From Acidimicrobiia bacterium (GTDB lineage: Bacteria; Actinomycetota; Acidimicrobiia; Spongiisociales; ZC4RG35): DNA of 64,000 bases. Positions 26,343 to 63,560 of this stretch are shown here, in pieces. The position numbers and the translations under genes are program-made. The notes below the pieces were generated by a model, which saw only the letters and a program-made list of their open reading frames with translations, did not search any database and was not told the DNA's origin. The first letter of the stretch is position 1, and each line of letters starts with the position of its first letter. Location: positions 1,322,980-1,386,979 of the forward strand of contig CBDFJY010000002.1 in the NCBI GenBank assembly GCA_965248705.1, given 5' to 3'.

Positions 26343-27389
26343 TTAGGAGGGGGGTGCTTCGCTTGATGGCGGCGGGTTTTCAAGTAGTCGGTATAGCTGT
26401 CGGGCGATGTACCGTTTGAGGCAGCGGCGGGTTTCTCGGGTGGTTTTGCCTTGGCTGGTGCGTTTGGTGATGTAGGCGCGGGTTTTGGGACAGTATCGGG
26501 CGCGGCTGATGGCGATGGTGTGGATGGCTTGGTTGAGTTGGCGGTCACCGCGTCGGTTCAGCCGGTGGCGGGTGTGTTGTCCCGATGAGGCTTCCAAGGG
26601 GGCTACGCCGGCTAGCCGAGCGAAGGCTGCTTCGTTGCGGCAGCGGCGAGGATGGGACCAGGCAATGAACACTTGGGCGGCTGTGATGGGGCCGATCCCG
26701 GGTTGTTGGAGCAGTTGGGGAGCTACGGTTTGGACTAGTTCGGTGATAGTTGTTTTGAGTTGGGCTGCTTCGGTGGTGAGTGCATTGATTCGCCGGGCGA
26801 GGGAACGCATGGCCTGTTTGGTGGCGGTGTGTTCGTTGGCCGGTGCTGATGTGAGTCGAAACCTGTGGCATTTAGCGACCAGAGCAGCAGTGGTAACACC
26901 TCGGAGTTGGTCTCTGAGATCGACTGGCGCGGTCACTAGGAGAGCTTTCAGTTCGTTGATCGCCGATGTTCTAGCTGTTATTGCGCCTCGTCGGGTGGTT
27001 TCCAACACTCGTAAGGCTTCTCGGTCTCCCCGAACTCGCGGTACAGAAGGTCGGAAGCGGCCCAGCGCCTGGCGGGCGGCCCGGCGAGCGTCCAGGGCAT
27101 CGGTCTTGGCGCCGTCGCCGCTGGGGGTGGGATCGTTGAACTCGGTCACCAGTTCCCCACTAGCGACCAAATAGGAGGTCACACCAGCTCCGTAACTGCC
27201 TGTGCCTTCCACAGACCATACCCGATCGGCGGCCTGGGTGTATTGGTCTACCCACTTCAACAACCGCTTGTATCCCAGCCCGCTGGTCTCGAACACCGCA
27301 GACGCCTGTTCTCCGGTGGTGGCGGTGTCCACTACCGACGCGGTGACCCGGTCACGATCCGGGTCGATCCCGATCACATGTTCTACCAA
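26343..27389 (-). mobile_element. IS110-family transposase gene (copy 1)
   Basis: ..HVIGIDPDRDRVTASVV.. DEDD N-terminal domain. C-terminal ..EASSGQHTRHRLNRRGDRQLNQAIHTIAISRAR.. is the Transposase_20-like region. The ATG-defined ORF extends to 27560, but the conserved core begins near 27389. Confidence 0.75.
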
Positions 27390-27474
27390 TGAGGCCAACA
27401 CAACAACCTTCTTTCCTTGTTTGCTACCTGGTTTGTCCAAGGAGGTGCGATCCGAACGGCAGGACTGTGATGAG

Positions 27475-28649
27475 TCACACCCCTTTGGGGTGGACAGGCT
27501 TCTGATCAGGCCAGCGCGGTACGCCAGGTCGGCGCTGGTGGTCAATGTCGGACAGATCATAGGAAAGACACCAAACCGGGTCAGTCAAATTGAGGGTCAC
27601 GACATCAATTCCAGCACCGTACCTGATAGCCTCCAAGGGCACCCGCCATATTCTCACAGTCAAATTGGGGGGGGGGGGTTGGAGGTGTTTGTAGACGCGG
27701 TTGGAGATGTGGCGTTTGAGGTTGCGGATGGCTTCTTTGGGGGTTTTGCCTCGGGCGAGTTGTTTTTGGTAGTAGCGGTGTCCTTCGCTGCCGGGTTGGG
27801 AGATTTGGGTGAGGGCTGCGGTGTAGAGGGCTTGGTTGATGCGGCGGTTTCCTCCTCGGTTGAGTCGATGGCGTGTTATGCGTCCCGAGCTGGCTTCCAG
27901 TGGTGCGGTGTCGTTGGCCATGGCAAATTTGGCTTTGGTGGGGTAGTGGGCGGGGTTCCCGACCTGGGCGATGATCTCGGCGGCGGTGAGGTTGCCGATG
28001 CCGTGGATGTGGGTGAGGGTGGCGCCGGTGGTTTTGACCACCGTGGTGATCTGTTGGGTGAGTTCTTGGATCTGTCGGCTCAGGGAGCGTATGTGGCGGG
28101 TTCTTTGTTTGGCGATCCGGGCGCGGGTGGTGGTGTCACGGGCGAGCATTCGTGTCACGCGGTCAACAGCGGACGGGTTGGTGAGAGCGGTGGGAAGTTT
28201 GGGATGATCGCCGCGCAGTTGGGTGAGATCGGCGTGGAGCCGGTTGATCTGGCGGGTGCGGGTTTCGACCAGTTCACGGCGGTATCCGACCAAAAGCCGC
28301 AGGTCTTCTGTGATACCGTCGGGGCGGCTACCCGGGCGATTAACAAAGCGTCAGTGGAATCGTTCTTGACAGGCGTGCGTTGTCTCCGCCGTTGCCTACT
28401 GGTCATCTGTGGTGGTACTTCCACCACCTCGATACCCGCTTCCACAAGCGCCAAAGCCGCGGGACGTCCGTAATGACCGGACCCTTCGATAGCTACCCGC
28501 CCGGCGCCGGTTTCCCGCGCCCAGGCCACCAACCGGGCACGACCCCCGGAGGTGTTAGGGACACAACGGGTCCCGACCTGGCGCAGGGCCTGGTCGATAA
28601 CACAGCCCATCAAAGTATCCTTGTGCGAGTCGATTCCAATAACAAACAT
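27475..28649 (-). pseudogene. IS110-family transposase (copy 2), split by a frameshift
   Basis: The N-terminal frame reads MFVIGIDSHKDTLMGCVI..ALLIARVAAP and runs to junk after about 28300. The C-terminal frame reads ..LLVGYRRELVETRTRQINRLHADL..EASSGRITRHRLNRGGNRRINQALY... A single-nucleotide shift near the gccgcccc run at about 28300 would join them. The C-terminus reads through a C12 tract (PPPP). Confidence 0.7.
27667..27678. repeat. G12 homopolymer tract
   Basis: caaattgggggggggggggttggagg. It encodes PPPP on the minus strand inside the IS110 copy 2 C-terminus. With 11 G the frame would stop two codons later (..PPPPI*), which resembles the copy 1 C-terminus. Confidence 0.9.
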
Positions 28650-55108: not shown

Positions 55109-56236
55109 CTAGTGCATTTGGGGGTGGTTGCTCACCCAAACGGTATTCCCTTCGGGATCGGTTACTCCCGTCAGGTCGAGAGGCAGGCTTGTTCGAGAGG
55201 CTGGCATCTTCATCACTGCCAGGCCCTGAGCGGTCAGATAATCTTCCCACTCTCCTATGTCGTCCGCCCACAGCACGGTCTCTCTTGATCCGGAGGGCGG
55301 CGAATTGGCTTGCCTTTTGCGGAGGATGAGGTAGGCGCCGCCGATCGCCATCCACACAAACCCGCGGGTGGCCATCCGGGGCGCGGTGATCTCATGCAGG
55401 CCGAGGGCCGTGGAGTAAAAGTTGGACATCTTTTCCAGGTCGTCCACCCAGACAATCATGCTCATCCCTCCTCGGCGGCTGAGCGACGGCGCCTCTTCCC
55501 CGGCCATTACCGTTTTCTTGGCTTGCGCCAGGCTGAATCGGCCGTGGGTTACCTCTCTTCCCACGATCACCCCGGCCAGTTTGCGGCCCGACACCGACAA
55601 CCGGGCCAGGGCGCTGAGGTCATCCACCGATCCCACGCCGCCCGCCACTATCACCGGCTCGGGCACCAATCCCAGTACTTCCCCGTAGATGTCCAGGTCG
55701 ACTGGTTCCTTCAGCGGATCACGCCCGGCTTCGGCCACCAAAAAGGAGGCCACTCCCGCCGAAGACATCTCCAAGAGCACCTCTTCGAGGTAGCGTCCGC
55801 TTCGTTCCGACCACCCCTGGGTGACGATCTCATGGTCGGACCGGACATCGAGGGACACCGTGATCTTGCCTGGATAGTCCCGGCAGAGGTCCCAAATCAT
55901 GATCTGGTCTTCGATGGCGGCGGTTCCCATCACCACTCTCCAGGCGCCGTTTCGGATCAACCGGGCGGCCTCGAGATGCGAGCGGATTCCTCCCGCCACC
56001 TGTACCGGTGTCTCCAGTTCCGAGACGATGGCGTCGATCAGGGGCCGGTTCTGGTAGTCGCCCAACGCCGCAGCGTTGAGATCCACGACATGCAAATAGT
56101 CGGCGCCCTGATTGACCCAGCTCTTGGCGCGGCTCAGGGGATCGTTGTCCAAGACAATGGCCTGGGTTACGTCACCGGTGGGGAGGCGGACCGATCTGCC
56201 GCCCAGAATGTTTATTCGCCCATAGACGTCCATGCT
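55109..56236 (-). CDS. HisA-like (beta/alpha)8 isomerase domain fused to a C-terminal VOC/glyoxalase-like domain
   Basis: Start trimmed to MDVYGRINILGGRSVRLPTGD. HisA-like motifs HVVDLNAA, VAGGIRS, SLDVR, VIVAGGVGS and GVIVGRE. The first catalytic Asp of HisA (IDL) reads N (INIL). The C-terminal 120 aa (MSMIVWVDDLEKMSNFYSTALGLHE..) look VOC-like. Confidence 0.6.
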   Translation of the reverse strand, partial: SMDVYGRINILGGRSVRLPTGDVTQAIVLDNDPLSRAKSWVNQGADYLHVVDLNAAALGDYQNRPLIDAIVSELETPVQVAGGIRSHLEAARLIRNGAWRVVMGTAAIEDQIMIWDLCRDYPGKITVSLDVRSDHEIVTQGWSERSGRYLEEVLLEMSSAGVASFLVAEAGRDPLKEPVDLDIYGEVLGLVPEPVIVAGGVGSVDDLSALARLSVSGRKLAGVIVGREVTHGRFSLAQAKKTVMAGEEAPSLSRRGGMSMIVWVDDLEKMSNFYSTALGLHEITAPRMATRGFVWMAIGGAYLILRKRQANSPPSGSRETVLWADDIGEWEDYLTAQGLAVMKMPASRTSLPLDLTGVTDPEGNTVWVSNHPQMH

Positions 56237-56282: not shown

Positions 56283-58169
56283 CTACAGAGGTTCGAGTTC
56301 CAAAGCCTGCTCGGCCGATTCCAGGGTTTGATTTCCCGCCAGCACCGGCAGGAACAGGTCGCCATAGCGGGAAAGACGCTCCCAGAGGTTGGTGATATCA
56401 ATGTCGCCGTTGCGGAAATGTCCCACCTCTTCCCAGAGCAGGGGAACAGAGACGGGAGCGCCGGGAAGGGGGCGTACCGAGTACACCGAGGCGATCGTCT
56501 GGCCGAAAGCGTTGCGGTTGTGGTCGATGAACACCTTCCCCGCCCGCTTGGGCTTGTCCCAGGCGATGGTCAGGTCGTCGGGGTTGGCCGCCACCAACAA
56601 CCCGGCCACTGCTCCCACGAAACGCCGCACCCGCTCATAGGTGTGGACGGGCCGGAGGGGAAGGTAGACGTGCATGCCGCGGCTTCCCGAAAGCTTGGCG
56701 ACCGACCGCAGCCCCAGTTGCTCCAGCGCCATCCCCAGCAGGCGGGTTCCCGCCACCACCTGGGACCATGAGGAGCCCTCGGCCGGATCGAAGTCGAATA
56801 CTGCCCAGTCGGGGTATCCGAGGTCCGGGTGGCGGGAATGAAAAGGGTGGGTTTCCACACACCCCATGTTGGCGAACCACATCAGGGACTCGGGGTGGTC
56901 GGCGCAGAGAAAGTCGATATTCCCGCCCGCCGAGTGCGAGCCCACCGGGAGGGTACGCATCCACTCGGGCTGGTGTCCCGGCGCTCGCTTCTCATAAAAA
57001 GACGGTCCCCCGATCCCGTCTGGATAGCGGGACATCGAGAGGGGGCGGTCCCGGAGATGGGGGAGGAGCGTGGCGGCTATCGAGGAGTAGTAGGTGATCA
57101 GATCACCCTTGGTGTAGCCCTCGGGAAAAAACGGCTTCGACAGGTTGGAGAGCCGTAGGGGAAGAGTGGCGTCGGTTGGCCGGTAGCGGTCTTCCACCGG
57201 CTCGACCGGCGTGGGGTCGGGGAAGTCCACCAGCCCCGATCCGGCCGGCAGGCGGGTGGACGGCTCTTCTTCCAGCCGGTGGAGAACCGAGCGAAGTTCG
57301 GCGCCGATGGCCAGGTGGCTCTTCCACTCCCGCGCCTCGGAGATGACCACCATCGCCAATCCCGTCTCATGGGCGGCCTCGGCCAGAGGGCCGATCCGAA
57401 GAGTCCCCTCTCCGTAGGGAAGATGGCTGATCTCCCCGGCGGGTCCGAATCGGTTGTCGGTGAACTGGGTGTGGAGGGGAGAGAGCATCCAGGCGGGGAA
57501 GGAGTCTTTTATGAAGGCCATCACCGTTTTGAAGCGCTCTGTTCCGGTCAGTCCGCCGCCCGACATGGCGTGAAGATGCGCCCAGTCGATCACCGGTCTC
57601 ACGAAGGGGAACTCCGCAGCCAGCAGGGCAATGTCGCCCAGCGTTCCGAAAGAGCGGTTATTGCCGGCGGTCTCGATCCCCAGTCCCACCCCCAGGTGGG
57701 CCACTTTGGGCGCCAGCATCTCCAAACGTTCTCGGATCGTCTCCATTACCTCGTGCGGCGGACGACCCTTCAGATGACCGGCGTGGGCGACGATCAAGGG
57801 AGCGCCCAGTTCCCGTCCGAGTTTCATGGTGTGCTCCAAAGCCGAGAGGCACATGCGGGCCTTCTCGGGGTCTTCGACGGTCAGCACCGCGAAATAGGGA
57901 GCGTGCGCAGAGAGCCGAAATCCCCGGGCGGCGGCCTGTGTTCCGAACTGGGCGCACCGCGCCTCTTTCCAAGGGAAACCTTTGACGAACGAAAGCTCAT
58001 AGGATGAGATATTCTGCTTTGCTAGGCCGTCCAGGAAAGCTCCGTCGTCGGCGCCCCGAGGAGGTGGGGGGCCCGACACTCCGAACAGGATGGGTTCCCG
58101 GCGTTTGCGGGTGGTGGCCATGGCCGCTATTAATGGTTGCCGAGGCACCGTCCAACCCCGCGCGGGCAA
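56283..58169 (-). CDS. fusion protein: AP endonuclease IV-like TIM-barrel domain plus LigD-type primase-polymerase (PolDom)
   Basis: N-terminal ..LSAHAPYFAVLT.. and ..VAHAGH.. resemble Nfo (HAPYLINL). The C-terminal half contains ..GSRGMHVYLPLRP.. and ..KVFIDHNRNAFGQT.., typical of the NHEJ LigD polymerase domain. Confidence 0.6.
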   Translation of the reverse strand: MPARGWTVPRQPLIAAMATTRKRREPILFGVSGPPPPRGADDGAFLDGLAKQNISSYELSFVKGFPWKEARCAQFGTQAAARGFRLSAHAPYFAVLTVEDPEKARMCLSALEHTMKLGRELGAPLIVAHAGHLKGRPPHEVMETIRERLEMLAPKVAHLGVGLGIETAGNNRSFGTLGDIALLAAEFPFVRPVIDWAHLHAMSGGGLTGTERFKTVMAFIKDSFPAWMLSPLHTQFTDNRFGPAGEISHLPYGEGTLRIGPLAEAAHETGLAMVVISEAREWKSHLAIGAELRSVLHRLEEEPSTRLPAGSGLVDFPDPTPVEPVEDRYRPTDATLPLRLSNLSKPFFPEGYTKGDLITYYSSIAATLLPHLRDRPLSMSRYPDGIGGPSFYEKRAPGHQPEWMRTLPVGSHSAGGNIDFLCADHPESLMWFANMGCVETHPFHSRHPDLGYPDWAVFDFDPAEGSSWSQVVAGTRLLGMALEQLGLRSVAKLSGSRGMHVYLPLRPVHTYERVRRFVGAVAGLLVAANPDDLTIAWDKPKRAGKVFIDHNRNAFGQTIASVYSVRPLPGAPVSVPLLWEEVGHFRNGDIDITNLWERLSRYGDLFLPVLAGNQTLESAEQALELEPL

Positions 58170-58277
58170 AGATAGGCCGGGTTGGCTGTCATAAGGCCAT
58201 TTTTTAAGAAAGTGATGTTTATAGTATCATACGAAAGTGAGTCAATACCGGCTCATCACCTAGGTAAGGAAGTAAAT

Positions 58278-58478
58278 ATGGATCTCCAAGGTATAAGCAT
58301 TGTGGTAGCGGCCATCGGGGCTATCAACTGGGGTTTGATCGGACTGTTCGGCTTTGACCTGGTAGCGGCCATCACTACCGCTGGCAAGTTCGGGTCAACC
58401 AACCTCATCTCACGAATTGTTTATGTCATCGTCGGGATAGGGGGCGGCTGGGCGCTTTACATCCAACTCTTTGGGTAG
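58278..58478 (+). CDS. DUF378-like small membrane protein
   Basis: MDLQGISIVVAAIGAINWGLIGLFGFDLVA. The ATG follows an AAGGAAG RBS in a locally AT-rich, promoter-like stretch. Confidence 0.5.
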   Translation: MDLQGISIVVAAIGAINWGLIGLFGFDLVAAITTAGKFGSTNLISRIVYVIVGIGGGWALYIQLFG

Positions 58479-58568: not shown

Positions 58569-58709
58569 GTTGCACGGGCTAAGGTTTTGGATGGGGCAGG
58601 AAAGAGAAAGCACATTGATGAACATGCTTAAGCGTCCAAAATGGCGTTCACCGGATCACCGCCGGGTGATAGGGGGCGAGGTGATGACCTGATGGGAGGT
58701 GATGACCTG

Positions 58710-59576
58710 ATGGATGGAGACATCCGGTTCGGGATCTGCACCGATCAGTCGATGCCCTACGCCACTTTGGTGGACCGGTGGCGCTACTTTGAGGAACTGG
58801 GGTTCGACAGTGTCTGGGACTGTGACCATTTCCTCCGGCCCAGCAATCCCTCCCATCCCTACTTCGAGGGGTGGACTCTGTTGGCCGCCCTTGCCACCCA
58901 AACCACCCGGATCCGGGTGGGGGTGCTGGTGGGAAGCAACACTTTCCGTCACCCCGCGCTCTTGGCGCAGCAGGCCATCACCATCGACCACATCTCGGAG
59001 GGGCGCTTGGAGTTCGGTTTCGGCGCCGGATGGTTTGTGGAGGAACATCAGCGGTTCGGGATACCTTTCGGTGATCCGCCGGTGCTGGTCGAAAGGTTCC
59101 GAGAAGCGGTCGAGATTATCGACTCGCTCCTCTGTGGCCGGGAAGTCACCTATGAGGGTCGGCACTATCAGCTGAGTGAGGCCCGGCTCCGGCCCCGGCC
59201 GGTGCAGTCTCCCCGTCCGCCTCTCACCCTGGGCGCACACCGTCCTCGTATGCTGGCGATTTGCGCGCGGTTCGCCGACCGGTGGAACTCGTTCGGGACG
59301 GTGGAGGAGATCGCCGAGCGCAATCGGCTGCTGGATCAGGCCTGTGGGAGGATCGGGAGGGATCCCACCGAGATCATCCGCTCCTTCTACGGGTGGTCAT
59401 CCAACATGGCCGCCCAGGGTCTGCCCGACCCGTGGTCGAGCCCCGACGCCTTCACCGAGGTGGTGGGCAGATACGTCGAGGCGGGGGTGAACGAGTTCAT
59501 TCTGGATCAACCCCGTCCCGAACAGTTCAAGATCGCCGAACGGATCGTCTCGGACGTCATCGAGCCGACTCGTTGA
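58710..59576 (+). CDS. LLM-class (luciferase-like monooxygenase family) flavin/F420-dependent oxidoreductase, tandem copy 1
   Basis: MDGDIRFGI..VDRWRYFEELGFDSVWDCDHF..GW..LAAL..T..IR.G.LV..N..RHPALLAQQA.T.DH.S.GRLE.G.G.GW is the LLM fold pattern. Start chosen at the ATG after the GGAGGTGA RBS. Confidence 0.7.
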   Translation: MDGDIRFGICTDQSMPYATLVDRWRYFEELGFDSVWDCDHFLRPSNPSHPYFEGWTLLAALATQTTRIRVGVLVGSNTFRHPALLAQQAITIDHISEGRLEFGFGAGWFVEEHQRFGIPFGDPPVLVERFREAVEIIDSLLCGREVTYEGRHYQLSEARLRPRPVQSPRPPLTLGAHRPRMLAICARFADRWNSFGTVEEIAERNRLLDQACGRIGRDPTEIIRSFYGWSSNMAAQGLPDPWSSPDAFTEVVGRYVEAGVNEFILDQPRPEQFKIAERIVSDVIEPTR

Positions 59577-59791
59577 GTGGCGACGGGCCGTTTGGCCGGC
59601 GCTGTAGGGCGGGCATCCGCAAATTGTTTTGTGTTATGTTGGTTATGACATTGGAAATGGCCGAATGATCGTGCCGCTCGGCCCCAACGGCGTGCGCAGC
59701 GCGGGGGGAACCACCGATGCGCACCGTGGATGGCGCACCGAAGGCGGTTCGAGGAAAACCGGTTTGTGATGAGAGTCGAGGTGATGCTCTG

Positions 59792-60655
59792 GTGAAAGGA
59801 ATGAGGTTCGGTGTTTACACCCCCCAGTGGAAGCCGTATCGGGTTCTGGTGGAGAATTGGCGGTATTTCGAAGAATTGGGGTTCGACAGCGTGTGGCCCT
59901 GTGATCATTTCCACAATCCCGGGCATCCGGACAAGCCCTTTTTCGAGGGGTGGACTGTACTGGCCGCCCTGGCTGCCGAAACCTCCCGGATCAGGGTGGG
60001 AGTGCTGGTGAGCAGCAACACGTTCCGCCATCCGGCGCTCCTGGCGCAGCAGGCCATCACCCTGGATCACATCTCCGAAGGGCGGCTCGACTTTGGGATC
60101 GGCGCCGGGTGGTACGAGTTGGAGCACGAGTGGTTCAGGATCCCCCTGTATGAGCCACGGGTGCGGGTGGACCGCTTTTCCGAGGCGATGGAGATCATCG
60201 ATCCCCTGATGCGCGGGGAGACCGTCTCCTATGAGGGTCGGCACTATCAGCTGAGTGAGGCCCGGCTCCGTCCCCGCTCCGTTCAGTTGCCCCGCCCACC
60301 GTTCATGCTGGCCGGCCACCGCCCCCGGATGCTGGGGATCTGCGCGCGGTACGCGGACGCGTGGAACTCCACCGGGACGGTGGAGGATCTCACCGAACGT
60401 AACCGCCTGGTTGACGAGGCCTGTCGGAGGATCGGGAGGGATCCGACCGAGATAGTCCGTTCCTATCTGGGAGGAAACTCCACCCTGGGCCCCCAGGGTC
60501 TGCCCGATATGTGGTCGAGCCCCGATGCCTTCTCGGAGGTGGTGGGGCGATACGCCGAAGCGGGGGTGAACGAGTTTATCTTCGTCGAACCCCTGCCCGA
60601 GCAGTACAAGATGGTCGAGCGGATCGCCTCTGAGGTGATCGAGCCGAGCCGTTGA
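59792..60655 (+). CDS. LLM-class oxidoreductase, tandem copy 2
   Basis: Paralog of copy 1 (..NWRYFEELGFDSVWPCDHF..). GTG start 7 nt after AGGTGA. The annotated 59717 start adds unrelated leader residues. Confidence 0.7.
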   Translation: MKGMRFGVYTPQWKPYRVLVENWRYFEELGFDSVWPCDHFHNPGHPDKPFFEGWTVLAALAAETSRIRVGVLVSSNTFRHPALLAQQAITLDHISEGRLDFGIGAGWYELEHEWFRIPLYEPRVRVDRFSEAMEIIDPLMRGETVSYEGRHYQLSEARLRPRSVQLPRPPFMLAGHRPRMLGICARYADAWNSTGTVEDLTERNRLVDEACRRIGRDPTEIVRSYLGGNSTLGPQGLPDMWSSPDAFSEVVGRYAEAGVNEFIFVEPLPEQYKMVERIASEVIEPSR

Positions 60656-60706
60656 GTGCGACTGCCCGGCGGGCCCGTTTGTGATGAGAGTGGAGGCGAT
60701 GCTCCG

Positions 60707-61570
60707 GTGAAGGGATTGAAGTTCGGACTCACCGTGACTCCGTCCGAGCCGTATCCGGTCCTGGCGAAGAAGTGGCGGTACTTCGAGGAGTTGGGGTTCG
60801 ACAGCATCTGGCATTGTGATCATCTCCTTCGTCCCAACGATCCGACCGGTCCCCTCTTCGAGGCGTGGACTCTGCTGGCCGCCCTGGCCACCGAAACCTC
60901 CCGGATCCGGGTGGGTGTGATGGTGACCAGCAACGTCCTCCGTCATCCCGCCCTCCTGGCGCAAGAGGCTATCACCGTCGATCACATCTCCGAGGGGCGC
61001 CTGGAGCTGGGGATTGGCTGCGGGTGGTTCGAGGAGGAACACAAGCGGTTCAGGATCCCCCTCTATGAGCCACGGGTTCGGGTGGACCGATTTGAGGAGG
61101 CCTTGGAGATCATCGACCCCCTGCTGAGGGGGGAGACCGTCTCCTATGAGGGTCGGCACTATCAGCTGAGCGAGGCCCGGCTCCGTCCTATGCCGGTGCA
61201 GTCGCCCCGCCCGCCCCTCACCCTGGCCGCCCACCGTCCCCGGATGCTTCGGATCTGCTCCCGCTATGCGGACCGGTGGAATTCCTCAGGAACGATCGAG
61301 GAGATGGCCGGACGGAACCGGCTCTTGGACGAGGCCTGTGAGAGAATCGGGAGGGATCCGACCGAGATCATCCGTTCTTTCCGCGCGGGAGTCTCCAACG
61401 TGGGCAGCCGGGGCCTGCCCGATATGTGGTCGAGCCCCGATGCTTTCACGGAGGTGGTGGGGATATTCGGAGAGGCCGGCGCGACCGAGTTCATCATGGA
61501 CCAGCCCCGTCCCGACCAGTACCAGACGGTCGAGCGGATCGCGTCGGAGGTCATCGAACCCAGTCGTTAA
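60707..61570 (+). CDS. LLM-class oxidoreductase, tandem copy 3
   Basis: Paralog. GTG start (VKGLKFGL) overlaps the uORF stop. Confidence 0.7.
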   Translation: MKGLKFGLTVTPSEPYPVLAKKWRYFEELGFDSIWHCDHLLRPNDPTGPLFEAWTLLAALATETSRIRVGVMVTSNVLRHPALLAQEAITVDHISEGRLELGIGCGWFEEEHKRFRIPLYEPRVRVDRFEEALEIIDPLLRGETVSYEGRHYQLSEARLRPMPVQSPRPPLTLAAHRPRMLRICSRYADRWNSSGTIEEMAGRNRLLDEACERIGRDPTEIIRSFRAGVSNVGSRGLPDMWSSPDAFTEVVGIFGEAGATEFIMDQPRPDQYQTVERIASEVIEPSR

Positions 61571-61609
61571 GGTGGAACCGTCTGTGATGAGAGTGAAGGT
61601 GATGTTCCG

Positions 61610-62473
61610 ATGAAGGGCTTTAGAGTCGGAATTTCCGCCATGCAGTACGAGCCGTATCCGGTTCTCCGGAAGAAGTGGCGATATTTTGAGGAGTTGGGGT
61701 TCGAGAGCATTTGGCACTGTGATCATTTGCTTTTCACCTCGGATTCGACCGTTCCCCTCTTCGAGGGTTGGACTGTCCTGGCCGCCCTGTCCGCCGAAAC
61801 CTCCCGGATCCGGCTGGGGGTGCTGGTGAGCAGCAATGTCCTCCGTCATCCCGCTCTCCTTGCCCAGGAGGCCATCACCGTCGATCACATCTCCGAGGGG
61901 CGCCTGGAAGTGGGGATTGGCTGCGGGTGGTTCGAGGAGGAACACGAGCGGTTCGGAATCCCGCTGTATGAGCCGGGGGTTCGGGTGGACCGATTTGAGG
62001 AGGCCTTGGAGATCATCGACCCGCTGTTGCGGGGAGAGACCGTCTCCTATGAGGGTCGGCACTATCAGTTGGCAGAGGCCCGGCTCCGTCCTCTCCCCGT
62101 TCAGTTGCCCCGCCCGCCCCTCACCCTGGCCGCCCACGGTCCCCGCATGCTTCGGATCTGCGCCCGCTACGCGGACCGGTGGAACTCCACCGGGACAGTG
62201 GAGGAGATGGCCGGACGGAACCGGCTCCTGGACGAGGTGTGTCGCAAGATCGGGAGGGATCCCACCGGGATCATCCGCTCCCTCCGCTTATCGATCCCCA
62301 AATTAGTCTCCCGGGGTCTGCCCGATCCGTGGTCGAGCGCCGGTGCCTTCACGGAGGTGGTGGGCAGATACGGAGAGGCCGGCGTGGACGAGTTCATTAT
62401 CGACCAGCCCCGTCCCGACCAGTACAAGACGGCCGAGCGAATCGCGCTGGAGGTCATCGAACCGAGTGGTTGA
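61610..62473 (+). CDS. LLM-class oxidoreductase, tandem copy 4
   Basis: Paralog. ATG start (MKGFRVGI) overlaps the uORF stop (ATGA). Confidence 0.75.
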   Translation: MKGFRVGISAMQYEPYPVLRKKWRYFEELGFESIWHCDHLLFTSDSTVPLFEGWTVLAALSAETSRIRLGVLVSSNVLRHPALLAQEAITVDHISEGRLEVGIGCGWFEEEHERFGIPLYEPGVRVDRFEEALEIIDPLLRGETVSYEGRHYQLAEARLRPLPVQLPRPPLTLAAHGPRMLRICARYADRWNSTGTVEEMAGRNRLLDEVCRKIGRDPTGIIRSLRLSIPKLVSRGLPDPWSSAGAFTEVVGRYGEAGVDEFIIDQPRPDQYKTAERIALEVIEPSG

Positions 62474-62681
62474 GTTGGGACTGGCGGGTGGGCTGGAGGG
62501 CCATCGTGGGGACGGAGAACTCGGTGTATGTTGGTGACGACATTGGAAGAGGCCGAGTGATCGGGTTGCCGGGGCCATGCCGGCGGGTGCGGCTCGGGTA
62601 GGATCACCGATGCGCGCCGCGGGTGGCGGTAGAGAATATGATCGGGGAATGCCCGTTTGTAACGAGAGTGGAGGTGATGGT

Positions 62682-63560
62682 GTGACGAAAGGACTGAGGT
62701 TCGGTATTACCGTCGTTCAGTCGGATCCGTATCCGGTTCTGGCCGAGAAGTGGCGGTACTTCGAGGAGTTGGGGTTCGACAGCATCTGGCACTGCGACCA
62801 CCTCCTCCGTTCCTTGGATCCGACCGCTCCCCTCTTCGAGGCATGGACCCTGCTGGCCGCCCTGGCCGCCGAGACTTCCCGGATCCGGGTGGGAGCGCTG
62901 GTGAGCAGCAACGTCCTCCGCCATCCGGCGCTCCTGGCGCAGCAGGCCATCACGGTCGATCACATCTCCGAGGGCCGCCTGGAAGTGGGGATTGGCTGCG
63001 GGTGGTTCGAGGAGGAGCACCGCCGGTTCGGGATCCCCCTCTATGAGCCGGGGGTGCGGGTGGACCGCTTCTCCGAGGCCCTGGAGATCATCGACCTCTT
63101 GCTGGTGGGGAAGACGGTCTCCCATGGGGGGCGGCATTATCAGTTGAGCGAGGCCCGGCTCCGTCCCCGCCCCGTGCAGTTGCCCCGCCCGCCGTTCATG
63201 CTGGCCGCTCACGGTCCCCGGATGCTGCGGATCTGCGCACGCTATGCGGACCGGTGGAACTCGTTCGGGACGGTGGAGGAGATGGCCCGAAGGAACCGCC
63301 TGCTGGACGAGGCCTGTGAGAGGATCGGGAGGGATCCCACCGGGATAAGCCGTTCCCTCTGCGTCGAGGACTCCACCAACCTGGCCTCCCAGGGCCTGCC
63401 GGACATATGGTCAAGCCCCGGCGGCTTCGCCGAAGTGGCGGGGAGGTACGCCGAGGCAGGGGTGAACGAGTTCATCATCGAACAGCCCCGGCCCGACCAG
63501 CACAAGACGGTCGAGCGGATCGTTTCAGAGGTGATCGAGCCGGGACGTCGATCTTTGTGA
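62682..63560 (+). CDS. LLM-class oxidoreductase, tandem copy 5
   Basis: Paralog. GTG start (VTKGLRFGI). The leader is degenerated (ATG to ACG). Confidence 0.65.
   Translation: MTKGLRFGITVVQSDPYPVLAEKWRYFEELGFDSIWHCDHLLRSLDPTAPLFEAWTLLAALAAETSRIRVGALVSSNVLRHPALLAQQAITVDHISEGRLEVGIGCGWFEEEHRRFGIPLYEPGVRVDRFSEALEIIDLLLVGKTVSHGGRHYQLSEARLRPRPVQLPRPPFMLAAHGPRMLRICARYADRWNSFGTVEEMARRNRLLDEACERIGRDPTGISRSLCVEDSTNLASQGLPDIWSSPGGFAEVAGRYAEAGVNEFIIEQPRPDQHKTVERIVSEVIEPGRRSL

What the first reader, a model, noticed from the sequence alone, without database searches (positions are those of the whole stretch)
56283..58169. Unusual domain fusion: endonuclease IV-like AP-endonuclease domain plus LigD polymerase domain
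The N-terminal half has xylose-isomerase-like TIM-barrel / Nfo features (SAHAPYF, HAGH). The C-terminal half has LigD PolDom motifs (GMHVYLPL, FIDHNRN). Canonical LigD combines Pol with a phosphoesterase and a ligase. An Nfo-Pol fusion would couple AP-site or 3'-end cleaning directly to NHEJ gap filling, which is a non-standard end-processing arrangement.
Basis: partly seen in the sequence, partly recalled or inferred. Interest (0 to 1): 0.5.

Follow-up and report, generated by a model that had tools for sequence, protein, structure and literature searches.

The report
Endonuclease IV-like nuclease fused to repair polymerase
One gene in this uncultured Acidimicrobiia genome joins an endonuclease IV-like DNA-end-cleaning nuclease to a LigD-type gap-filling polymerase; the fusion is real, conserved in every related genome checked, and untested in any paper I could find, so two consecutive DNA-repair steps probably sit on one protein.

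Summary
The ORF at 56283..58169 (-) exists; its likely start is the ATG at 58121, giving 612 aa. It carries an N-terminal PF01261 TIM barrel (E 3.5e-25) and a full-length C-terminal LigD Prim-Pol domain (PF21686, E 9e-82). It is not a frameshift artefact: 83 of 84 related loci, mostly Acidimicrobiia MAGs, keep both domains in one uninterrupted ORF. One distant protein (P0129) carries the same two domains in reverse order.

The polymerase keeps its catalytic and 5'-phosphate-pocket motifs. It is closest to mycobacterial Prim-PolC, a base-excision-repair gap filler, but lacks that enzyme's Loop 3.

No Ku or ligase was found in the parts of the window I annotated or in about 85 related loci. A stand-alone flap endonuclease lies downstream in one subclade.

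Best reading: a clean/incise-and-fill enzyme for excision or single-strand-break repair, with the ligase supplied separately. An NHEJ role is not excluded. This is a new variant of a known kind and is mis-annotated in databases as a "DNA ligase".

The parts
56283..58121 (-). Gene for the bifunctional protein: 612 aa from the ATG at 58121, stop codon at 56283-56285. The open frame extends upstream to a TTG at 58169, which would give 628 aa.
   Evidence: ORF listed. P0001 (612 aa, 100% identical) is the public database form. Homologues start at 'M-IRFGISG', and in-frame stops lie just upstream of that start in 4 loci. Coordinates.
57267..58094 (-). Endo IV-like (beta/alpha)8 TIM-barrel nuclease domain, ORF aa 26-301. 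Predicted metal ligands: H89, H129, E166, D195, H198, H233, E246, H249, E278. Predicted lesion-inserting residues: Y92 and F93.
57162..57266 (-). Interdomain linker, ORF aa 302-336; variable in sequence and rich in Pro, Glu and Asp.
   Evidence: Model confidence is lower here (pLDDT 57-69). The alignment consensus is poor across this stretch.
56286..57161 (-). LigD-type primase-polymerase (AEP) domain, ORF aa 337-628. Motifs: 5'-phosphate pocket SNLSKPFFPEGYTKGD (341-356); aromatic wedge SFYEKR (390-395); catalytic DxD in VFDFDP (457-462); SGSRGMHVYLPL (494-505); third acidic residue in FIDHNRN (547-553). There is no Loop 3.
   Evidence: PF21686, E 9e-82, full length. TIGR02778 ligD_pol scores 228.1, above its cutoff of 214.7. 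PDB matches: Prim-PolC 5op0/6sa0 at 184 bits, Methanocella NHEJ Pol 172, Pae LigD 131, Mtb PolDom 118, with residue-level alignments. AlphaFold2 model pLDDT 89.7. Foldseek TMq 0.80-0.87 to all LigD-type Pol structures.
55109..56233 (-). Conserved downstream neighbour and possible co-transcribed gene: a HisA-like TIM barrel fused to a glyoxalase/VOC domain (374 aa), 49 nt after the fusion gene's stop codon. Whether it takes part in the repair function is unknown.
   Evidence: PF00977 at 1e-49 plus PF00903 at 3e-7. The HisA equivalog model scores 173.6, below its cutoff of 228.95. It is the next gene downstream on the same strand in about 40 loci, all within the subclade of 60 loci whose Pol domain is at least 65% identical to the window's.

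Best explanation
The gene encodes a two-headed DNA-repair enzyme.

The N-terminal domain is a divergent endonuclease IV-type metallo-phosphodiesterase with a trinuclear metal site. By inference it does one or both of two things. It may cut 5' of an abasic site, leaving a 3'-OH and a 5'-deoxyribose phosphate. It may also remove 3' blocking groups such as 3'-phosphate, 3'-phosphoglycolate or the 3'-unsaturated aldehyde left by glycosylase/lyases.

The C-terminal domain is a LigD-family primase-polymerase. It would dock on the 5'-phosphate of the downstream strand and extend the freshly cleaned 3'-OH across the short gap, possibly with ribonucleotides as its mycobacterial relatives do.

A flexible linker of about 35 residues would let one polypeptide pass the nick from the nuclease to the polymerase without releasing a toxic intermediate. 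Sealing needs a separate ligase encoded elsewhere. Where synthesis displaces a 5'-dRP flap, a flap endonuclease would remove it; that gene is adjacent in one subclade.

In effect this is a covalent version of the Endo IV to Prim-PolC to LigC excision-repair route reconstituted for mycobacteria.

What is shown: the domain identities, intact active-site residues in both domains, the reality and conservation of the fusion, and the gene neighbourhoods. What is inferred: the substrates, the order of reactions, the hand-off between domains, and the identity of the ligase.
For: The fusion is real and under selection.
- The 120 best homologue clusters (61-100% identity) all carry PF01261 plus PF21686.
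- 83 of 84 loci keep one uninterrupted ORF. The loci comprise 80 species-level genomes, mostly Acidimicrobiia MAGs, 3 further loci fetched by exact protein look-up (2 of which are contigs already among the 80), and the window itself.
- P0129, from an unrelated low-GC MAG, carries the same two domain families in reverse order: Pol at 30-281, TIM barrel at 347-581.

The N-terminal domain is Endo IV-like.
- The family profile hits Endo IV from 10 or more organisms at E 1e-17 to 1e-9, UvdE at about 3e-8, and sugar epimerases only at 5e-5.
- hhalign against E. coli Nfo gives 97.8% probability, E 7e-13.
- Foldseek gives TM 0.64-0.74 and rmsd 3.2-3.8 A for Endo IV, against 0.53-0.61 and 4.7-6.8 A for sugar epimerases.
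- All nine Nfo metal ligands map to conserved residues: H69, H109, E145, D179, H182, H216, D229, H231, E261 map to H73, H113, E150, D179, H182, H217, E230, H233, E262 (numbering from M17). Nfo Y72/L73 map to Y76/F77.
- The best NCBIfam match across the family is always nfo, never a sugar isomerase.

The polymerase looks competent. The DxD, SGxRGxH and FIDxNxN motifs, the 5'-phosphate pocket and the wedge residues all align to Prim-PolC and Mt-PolDom. The fold matches at TMq 0.80-0.87.

The pathway logic comes from experiments on relatives.
- In mycobacteria, Endo IV was the best 3'-end-processing nuclease for Prim-PolC/LigC-mediated BER, and it co-purifies with LigC (PMC5663958).
- B. subtilis LigD and Nfo act together in spore BER (PMC4770248).
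- Prim-PolC is the closest solved relative of this polymerase: 184 bits and 36% identity, against 118 bits and 30% for Mtb LigD PolDom.

Context.
- A stand-alone 5'-3' exonuclease/FEN (PF02739 + PF01367) lies 10-16 nt downstream in 5 loci and within 6.4 kb on the same strand in 8 more, out of 24 loci in one subclade.
- No Ku or ligase was found in the parts of the window that were annotated or in any fetched locus.
Against: - No activity has been measured for any member of this family.
- The domain scores far below the Nfo family cutoff: 27.9 against 129.65 bits.
- Its best sequence match in the PDB is MJ1311 (3wqo), deposited as a 'D-tagatose 3-epimerase-like protein' of unknown function.
- The Nfo H216-equivalent is Gln in 84 of 208 fusion proteins examined. 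The window protein has His there. The D229 equivalent is a Glu shifted by one residue. The metal site may therefore differ from canonical Endo IV.
- A divergent Endo IV paralogue can be inactive: P. furiosus PF1383 had no AP-endonuclease or DNA-binding activity (PMC2770678).
- The polymerase lacks Loop 3, which Prim-PolC needs for 3-nt gap filling (PMC7442782). It is almost as similar to the bona fide NHEJ polymerase of Methanocella (172 bits).
- Ku and ligase content of the whole genome could not be examined.
- FEN adjacency is confined to one subclade and is absent from the window's own subclade.
Confidence: 0.55

Rival explanations
1. It is an NHEJ end-processing module. The Endo IV-like domain would be a non-homologous replacement for the LigD phosphoesterase domain, cleaning 3'-phosphate, 3'-phosphoglycolate or 3'-ribonucleotide ends at double-strand breaks. 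The polymerase would fill in across a Ku-held synapse, and a stand-alone ATP-dependent ligase encoded elsewhere would seal. This does not exclude a BER role.
For: The polymerase meets the NCBIfam ligD_pol model (228.1 against a cutoff of 214.7). It matches the Methanocella NHEJ polymerase almost as well as Prim-PolC (172 against 184 bits; TM 0.85). Like NHEJ PolDoms, it lacks Loop 3. NHEJ components are often split across separate genes (PMC5663958; PMC7719229).
Against: No Ku, ligase or phosphoesterase gene lies within +/-10 kb in any of about 85 loci or in the parts of the 64-kb window that were annotated, whereas ku and ligD are often neighbours elsewhere. The polymerase is much closer to Prim-PolC than to the actinobacterial LigD PolDom (184 against 118 bits). 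Prim-PolC did not bind Ku (PMC5663958). FEN adjacency fits nick or gap repair better than end joining.
Confidence: 0.25
2. The TIM barrel is not a DNA nuclease. It could be catalytically dead or serve as a DNA-binding or scaffolding module, like P. furiosus PF1383. It could also act on a non-DNA phosphodiester or sugar substrate, as other PF01261 members do (CbiR, sugar epimerases). In that case the fusion would not couple incision to synthesis.
For: The Pfam family is generic, 'Xylose isomerase-like TIM barrel'. The top PDB sequence hit, MJ1311, was deposited as an epimerase-like protein. CbiR, a cobamide phosphodiesterase, is the second-best NCBIfam match. Gln replaces the H216 equivalent in about 40% of fusion proteins. 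PF1383 sets a precedent for an inactive paralogue.
Confidence: 0.1
3. The barrel acts like UvdE or a nucleotide-incision-repair enzyme. It would nick 5' of bulky, UV-induced or oxidised bases without a glycosylase. The polymerase would then perform strand-displacement synthesis and FEN would remove the damaged flap.
Against: Endo IV matches are clearly stronger than UvdE matches in every comparison. The Pfam UvdE model (PF03851) does not hit the window protein.
Confidence: 0.07

Closest known systems
Mycobacterial LigC / Prim-PolC excision-repair complex working with Endonuclease IV (Plocinski et al. 2017, PMC5663958; Brissett et al. 2020, PMC7442782)
   Same: It uses the same two enzyme types in the same logical order: Endo IV cleans the 3' end, and a LigD-family Prim-Pol that binds the 5'-phosphate fills a 1-3 nt gap. 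Prim-PolC is the closest solved relative of the window's polymerase (184 bits, 36% identity, TMq 0.87). The wedge, Loop-2 W/K/R, catalytic and 5'-phosphate-pocket residues are all conserved.
   Different: Here the two activities sit on one polypeptide rather than in separate proteins bridged by LigC. The polymerase lacks the Prim-PolC hallmark, Loop 3. The nuclease is a very divergent Endo IV-like protein, not the canonical Nfo/End. No ligC-type gene lies next to it, whereas prim-polC is operonic with ligC.
Bacterial LigD (Pol + phosphoesterase + ligase), the NHEJ enzyme that works with Ku
   Same: It is a multidomain repair enzyme built around the same polymerase family (TIGR02778 met). That polymerase is fused to a 3'-end-healing nuclease activity.
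   Different: It has no ligase domain and no PF13298 phosphoesterase domain. The end-healing module has an unrelated fold, a TIM barrel. No Ku gene lies nearby. Database names such as 'non-homologous end-joining DNA ligase' and 'bifunctional ... LigD' are therefore misleading.
Endonuclease IV (Nfo/End/Apn1; E. coli 1qtw, T. maritima 2x7v) and divergent archaeal Endo IV homologues (PfuAPE PF0258; MJ1311, 3wqo)
   Different: It is only about 15-18% identical to solved Endo IVs and scores far below the Nfo model cutoff. The D229 equivalent is a Glu offset by one residue. The H216 equivalent is Gln in about 40% of family members. It is fused to a polymerase.
B. subtilis LigD + Nfo spore base-excision repair (de Ory et al. 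2016, PMC4770248)
   Same: There is genetic and biochemical evidence that an Endo IV and a LigD-type polymerase cooperate on incised AP sites.
   Different: In Bacillus the proteins are separate. The 5'-dRP lyase that completes short-patch repair resides in the LigD ligase domain, which is absent here, so dRP removal must be done by another enzyme such as FEN or a lyase.

Membership tests
LigD-type primase-polymerase (PolDom; PF21686 / TIGR02778) | Full-length match to the family models above their curated cutoffs | tested here: met
   PF21686 scores 274.8 bits (cutoff 27.4) over profile positions 1-254 of 254. TIGR02778 scores 228.1 against a cutoff of 214.7.
LigD-type primase-polymerase (PolDom; PF21686 / TIGR02778) | AEP catalytic residues: the DxD pair, the third acidic residue and the SGxxGxH motif | tested here: met
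   VFDFDP, FIDHNRN and SGSRGMHVYLPL align column for column with VFDLDP, VFVDWSQN and SGSKGLHLYTPL of Mt-PolDom and with the Prim-PolC equivalents. All are invariant in 41 family members.
LigD-type primase-polymerase (PolDom; PF21686 / TIGR02778) | 5'-phosphate-binding pocket (N..K...K) and aromatic splaying wedge | tested here: met
   SNLSKPFFPE-GYTKGD aligns with TNADKVLYPATGTTKSD of Mt-PolDom, and SFYEKR aligns with AFFEKQ of Mt-PolDom and IYQKR of Prim-PolC. The roles of these residues are taken from PMC7442782 and from my own knowledge of Mt-PolDom.
Prim-PolC (mycobacterial PolD1) orthologue | C-terminal Loop 3 (Prim-PolC residues 313-333, with pin residue N321) that defines short-gap specificity | tested here: not met
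   The protein ends 22 residues after the GDLF motif, as Mt-PolDom and the Methanocella Pol do. The HMMER envelope on Prim-PolC stops at chain position 295 of 331. TMt is lower than TMq only for Prim-PolC, 0.81 against 0.87. Loop 3 is defined in PMC7442782.
Prim-PolC (mycobacterial PolD1) orthologue | Operonic association with a LigC-type ATP-dependent ligase | tested here: not met
   No ligase gene was found in the annotated parts of the window or in about 85 loci spanning +/-10 kb, by Pfam context, clustering and a motif scan.
Canonical LigD (NHEJ ligase D) | ATP-dependent ligase domain (PF01068/PF04679) in the same protein | tested here: not met
   Only PF01261 and PF21686 (plus a weak PF01896 match) were detected. 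The LigD full-length models score far below their cutoffs and match only over the polymerase region.
Canonical LigD (NHEJ ligase D) | Genomic or functional partnership with Ku | not testable with these tools
   No Ku was found in the window genes that were annotated or in the fetched loci. The rest of the 2.56-Mb genome cannot be searched here.
Endonuclease IV (Nfo; TIGR00587 / COG0648) | Score above the curated family cutoff | tested here: not met
   TIGR00587 scores 27.9 bits against a cutoff of 129.65. Relatives score 21-66 bits.
Endonuclease IV (Nfo; TIGR00587 / COG0648) | Nine residues of the trinuclear metal site (E. coli H69, H109, E145, D179, H182, H216, D229, H231, E261) | tested here: met
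   They map to H73, H113, E150, D179, H182, H217, E230, H233 and E262 (numbering from M17), by hmmalign and hhalign. The Nfo sequence was verified against 1qtw. Caveats: D is replaced by E with a one-residue offset, and position 217 is Gln in 84 of 208 family members. The list of nine catalytic residues is confirmed in PMC2770678.
Endonuclease IV (Nfo; TIGR00587 / COG0648) | TIM-barrel fold closest to Endo IV structures | tested here: met
Endonuclease IV (Nfo; TIGR00587 / COG0648) | Lesion-recognition residues (E. coli Y72 and L73, which insert at the AP site) | tested here: met
   HDSYL of Nfo aligns with HAPYF. P75 and Y76 are at least 90% conserved in the family. The role of Y72 is from my own knowledge of the Endo IV-DNA structures. 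The equivalent of R37 could not be assigned confidently.
Endonuclease IV (Nfo; TIGR00587 / COG0648) | AP-endonuclease and 3'-repair diesterase activity | not testable with these tools
   This needs a biochemical assay. No member of this subfamily has been characterised in the literature I could search.
Sugar isomerase/epimerase branch of PF01261 | Closest sequence or structure relatives are sugar isomerases or epimerases | tested here: not met

The most novel reading that the evidence does not exclude
The fusion is a self-contained 'incise/clean-and-fill' repair machine that serves as a main abasic-site and single-strand-break repair route in Acidimicrobiia. A non-orthodox Endo IV-like nuclease would hand the nick directly to an AEP polymerase, possibly laying down a ribonucleotide patch, and a FEN and a ligase would finish the job. 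If so, LigD-family Prim-Pols would be primarily excision-repair enzymes in a whole bacterial class rather than NHEJ factors. The Endo IV-like barrel would also be an evolutionary replacement for the LigD phosphoesterase domain.
Probability: 0.3. Interest if true: 0.65.

Novelty: new variant of a known kind. Interest (0 to 1): 0.5.

Why it matters
Domain fusions are strong evidence of functional coupling. This one, conserved across many Acidimicrobiia species and found once more in the opposite order, independently supports a claim that so far rests on work in mycobacteria and Bacillus: LigD-family primase-polymerases work hand in hand with Endo IV-type nucleases in base-excision and single-strand-break repair, not only in NHEJ.

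It offers a single-polypeptide model for studying how a toxic repair intermediate passes from nuclease to polymerase.

It points to a divergent, mostly uncharacterised Endo IV-like subfamily that includes archaeal members and MJ1311.

It also exposes a systematic annotation error. These proteins are labelled 'non-homologous end-joining DNA ligase' although they have no ligase domain, which would inflate NHEJ calls in surveys of uncultured Actinomycetota.

Tried and rejected
- Frameshift or mis-assembly joining two genes: rejected, since 83 of 84 loci keep one ORF. The four apparent in-frame stops lie upstream of the true start. Only L041 has a frameshift, and it is inside the polymerase domain.
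- Sugar isomerase identity for the N-terminal half: rejected.
- Prim-PolC orthology: considered because it is the best PDB hit, then rejected because Loop 3 is absent.
- Operon partners Ku, LigC or LigD: looked for in the window (30 larger genes by Pfam), in 5 Pfam-annotated contigs and in about 85 loci by neighbour clustering and a ligase-motif scan. None was found. The single motif hit, in L051, has the wrong spacing and no motif V.
- A look-up of the exact window protein's contig failed: no record.
- `mafft --add` of Nfo to the family alignment gave a shifted, meaningless mapping. I used hmmalign and hhalign instead.
- I tried to show that the validated archaeal AP endonuclease PF0258 belongs to the retrieved stand-alone family, using termini deduced from its cloning primers. 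It is not among the 150 representatives.
- The promoter and terminator scan around the gene gave nothing above chance.
- Literature searches for a prior description of the fusion found none. The library is incomplete, so this is not proof of absence.
Full report
**1. Observation.**
The window contains an ORF at 56283..58169 on the minus strand, 628 aa from a TTG. Pfam assigns PF01261 (AP_endonuc_2, 'Xylose isomerase-like TIM barrel') to aa 54-280 at E 3.5e-25. It assigns PF21686 (LigD_Prim-Pol) to aa 353-606 at E 9.3e-82, covering the whole 254-position profile. The likely start is the ATG at 58121 (M17, 612 aa). That is the form held in public databases (P0001), and homologues begin just before the conserved 'IRFGISG'.

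**2. Is the fusion real?**
The 120 best homologue clusters (61-100% identity, about 600 aa) all carry both Pfam domains. A scan of species-representative genomes found at least 569 stretches encoding a relative of the barrel. The best 80 are almost all uncultured Acidimicrobiia MAGs from marine, sponge, coral, sediment and soil samples. In all 80, the polymerase domain follows the barrel directly.

I analysed 84 loci in total: those 80, three more fetched by exact protein look-up (two of which are contigs already among the 80), and the window. In 83 of them the two domains lie in one uninterrupted frame. The four apparent stops sit upstream of the real start, and the single exception (L041) has a frameshift inside the polymerase.

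A distant, low-GC protein (P0129, from MAG GCA_040755895.1) has the same two domain families in the opposite order, with Pol at 30-281 and the barrel at 347-581. Its barrel is closer to the window's (39%) than the other full-length stand-alone relatives retrieved, apart from P0123 (44%); those are mostly 24-34% identical. True stand-alone copies also exist; P0123, for example, has no polymerase nearby.

**3. What is the N-terminal domain?**
A deep search with this domain alone found only 663 relatives among 1.84 billion representatives. In a 76-sequence alignment the invariant or at-least-90%-conserved residues are H73, H113, E150, D179, H182, E230, H233, E262, P75, Y76 and a His two residues beyond H217, numbering from M17.

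I verified my recalled E. coli Nfo sequence against 1qtw. I then mapped its nine metal ligands with hmmalign and hhalign (97.8% probability, E 7e-13). H69, H109, E145, D179, H182, H216, D229, H231 and E261 correspond to H73, H113, E150, D179, H182, H217, E230, H233 and E262. Nfo Y72/L73 correspond to Y76/F77.

The family profile hits Endo IV from many organisms at E 1e-17 to 1e-9, including E. coli, T. maritima, S. aureus, M. tuberculosis and an Apn1. It hits UvdE at about 3e-8 and sugar epimerases only at 5e-5.

There are caveats:
- The domain scores far below the Nfo family cutoff, 27.9 against 129.65 bits.
- The best sequence hit in the PDB is the uncharacterised MJ1311. It was deposited as an epimerase-like protein, but Kiyonari et al. 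list it as the predicted archaeal Endo IV homologue.
- The D229 equivalent is a Glu offset by one residue.
- The H216-equivalent column is His in 120 and Gln in 84 of 208 fusion proteins. The window protein has His.
- Kiyonari et al. show both sides of the risk. PF0258, only 13.5% identical to Nfo, is a genuine AP endonuclease with 3'-5' exonuclease and 3'-phosphatase activity. Its paralogue PF1383, which lacks some residues critical for activity including the Glu261 equivalent, is inactive.

Source databases call the stand-alone relatives 'deoxyribonuclease IV' (JGI) or 'TIM barrel protein' (NCBI). Some are archaeal.

**4. What is the C-terminal domain?**
It meets the NCBIfam ligD_pol model (228.1 against 214.7). 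The closest solved proteins are:

| Structure | Bits | Identity |
|---|---|---|
| M. smegmatis Prim-PolC (5op0/6sa0) | 184 | 36% |
| Methanocella NHEJ polymerase (5dmu) | 172 | 31% |
| P. aeruginosa LigD Pol (2fao) | 131 | 30% |
| M. tuberculosis LigD PolDom (2iru) | 118 | 30% |

Bit scores are and identities from the Foldseek alignments. The catalytic DxD, the third acidic residue, the SGxRGxH motif, the 5'-phosphate pocket and the aromatic wedge all align. The model (pLDDT 89.7) superposes on all of these structures at TMq 0.80-0.87.

Prim-PolC's defining Loop 3 (residues 313-333; PMC7442782) has no counterpart. The protein ends 22 residues after GDLF, and TMt is lower than TMq only for Prim-PolC. 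It is therefore a LigD-type PolDom that sits nearest Prim-PolC in sequence but is not a Prim-PolC orthologue.

**5. Surroundings.**
The window's other large genes are housekeeping: respiratory complexes, ABC transport, aromatic amino-acid synthesis, NAD synthase, GreA, MgtE and IS110 remnants. None is Ku, a ligase or another repair gene. Several ORFs, including those at 1-3.2 kb and 11.8-15.2 kb, were not annotated. Pfam-annotated contigs for four relatives, including P0129, show no Ku or ligase within +/-10 kb.

I clustered 1,173 neighbouring ORFs from the loci. Three neighbours recur:
- **HisA-like barrel fused to a glyoxalase/VOC domain.** It is the next gene downstream on the same strand in about 40 loci, including the window (55109..56233, a 49-nt gap). 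It is sub-threshold for true HisA.
- **Stand-alone Pol I-type 5'-3' exonuclease/FEN.** It lies 10-16 nt downstream in 5 loci and within 6.4 kb on the same strand in 8 more, out of the 24 loci in the subclade whose Pol domain is 60% identical or less. It appears in only 1 of the other 60 loci.
- **Sir2 gene.** It is directly downstream in 3 loci.

A ligase-motif scan of all loci and the window found nothing convincing.

**6. Mechanism.**
The best-supported reading is a bifunctional 'clean/incise-and-fill' enzyme for excision or single-strand-break repair. The Endo IV-like head would generate a clean 3'-OH, either by AP incision or by removing a 3' block. The tethered Prim-Pol, anchored on the downstream 5'-phosphate, would fill the short gap. 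A ligase encoded elsewhere would seal, and a FEN would remove any displaced 5'-dRP flap.

This mirrors the reconstituted mycobacterial pathway FPG, then Endo IV, then Prim-PolC, then LigC. In that system Endo IV was the most effective end-processing nuclease, and it co-purified with LigC (PMC5663958). It also mirrors the Nfo-LigD cooperation in Bacillus spores (PMC4770248).

The domain identities, intact active sites, the conserved fusion and the gene context are shown. The substrates, the hand-off between domains and the identity of the ligase are inferred. I put confidence at about 0.55.

The main rival, which is not mutually exclusive, is an NHEJ role in which the barrel replaces the LigD phosphoesterase domain (about 0.25). 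It cannot be excluded because the genome's Ku and ligase content is out of reach. Lesser rivals are a non-nuclease or inactive barrel (about 0.1) and UvdE-like lesion nicking (about 0.07).

**7. Comparison and novelty.**
The components and the pathway logic are known. The covalent Endo IV-like + Prim-Pol architecture was not described in any paper I could find, and the proteins are auto-annotated as 'non-homologous end-joining DNA ligase' despite having no ligase domain. I rate it a new variant of a known kind with moderate interest (0.5). It is a clean Rosetta-stone fusion that supports the Prim-Pol/Endo IV repair axis, it is widespread in an uncultured class, and it is easy to test. It is not mechanistically startling.

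Noticed in passing
window 55109..56233 (-): A HisA-like TIM barrel (PF00977, 1e-49; the TIGR00007 HisA model scores 173.6, below its cutoff of 228.95) is fused to a C-terminal glyoxalase/VOC domain (PF00903). It lies 49 nt downstream of the repair gene on the same strand. The same gene pair occurs in about 40 related Acidimicrobiia loci. It is not canonical hisA, and both its function and any link to the repair enzyme are unknown.
   Followed up: partly
L035, L045, L066, L067, L080 (gene starts 10-16 nt after the fusion's stop); also L021, L032, L041, L043, L059, L077, L078, L085: A stand-alone Pol I-type 5'-3' exonuclease / flap endonuclease (PF02739 + PF01367, about 290 aa) lies directly downstream of the fusion gene, or within 6.4 kb on the same strand, in 13 of 24 loci of the more divergent subclade. 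It is absent from the window's own subclade.
   Followed up: yes
L040, L058, L065 (10-52 nt downstream of the fusion gene): A Sir2-family deacetylase gene (PF02146) directly follows the fusion gene in three loci. From memory, not checked here, a Sir2-like protein has been linked to mycobacterial NHEJ.
   Followed up: no
L003 10001..11803 (protein P0129, MAG GCA_040755895.1): This is a reverse-order version of the fusion (Prim-Pol then Endo IV-like barrel, 600 aa) in a low-GC genome. It sits near the trmD-rplS-lepB-rnhB cluster and upstream of comM and dprA. I did not determine the organism's taxonomy.
   Followed up: partly
window 58641..63560 (+): Five tandem paralogous genes of about 290-330 aa (58641-59576, 59717-60655, 60656-61570, 61610-62473, 62577-63560) correspond by synteny with L001 to luciferase-like monooxygenase (PF00296) genes. 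This is a local paralogue expansion lying on the upstream side of the repair gene, on the opposite strand.
   Followed up: no
window 58275..58478 (+): A small DUF378-family membrane protein gene (assigned by synteny with L001) is divergently oriented from the repair gene. The two share an AT-richer intergenic region (GC about 0.57-0.59, against about 0.63 elsewhere).
   Followed up: no
window 26343..28293 (-), and 11.3-15.3 kb: There are two adjacent IS110-family transposase ORFs: a 405-aa ORF with PF01548 + PF02371, and a 272-aa ORF with only PF02371 that is probably a truncated copy. The 11.3-15.3 kb region has ORFs with unusually low third-position GC and may be foreign DNA.
   Followed up: no
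public annotations of P0013, P0015, P0021, P0027 and others: [quoted passage not shown] This is a systematic mis-annotation.
   Followed up: yes
family alignment column equivalent to window H233 (ORF numbering; codon 57471-57473): The residue equivalent to Endo IV metal ligand H216 is Gln in 84 of 208 fusion proteins (PLQxQF) and His in 120 (PLHxQF or PLHxHF). This suggests that metal site 2 differs within the family.
   Followed up: partly
protein P0124 (374 aa): This apparent 'stand-alone' barrel has a C-terminal tail that reads like an out-of-frame Prim-Pol N-terminus. It is probably a frameshifted fusion gene or an assembly error.
   Followed up: no
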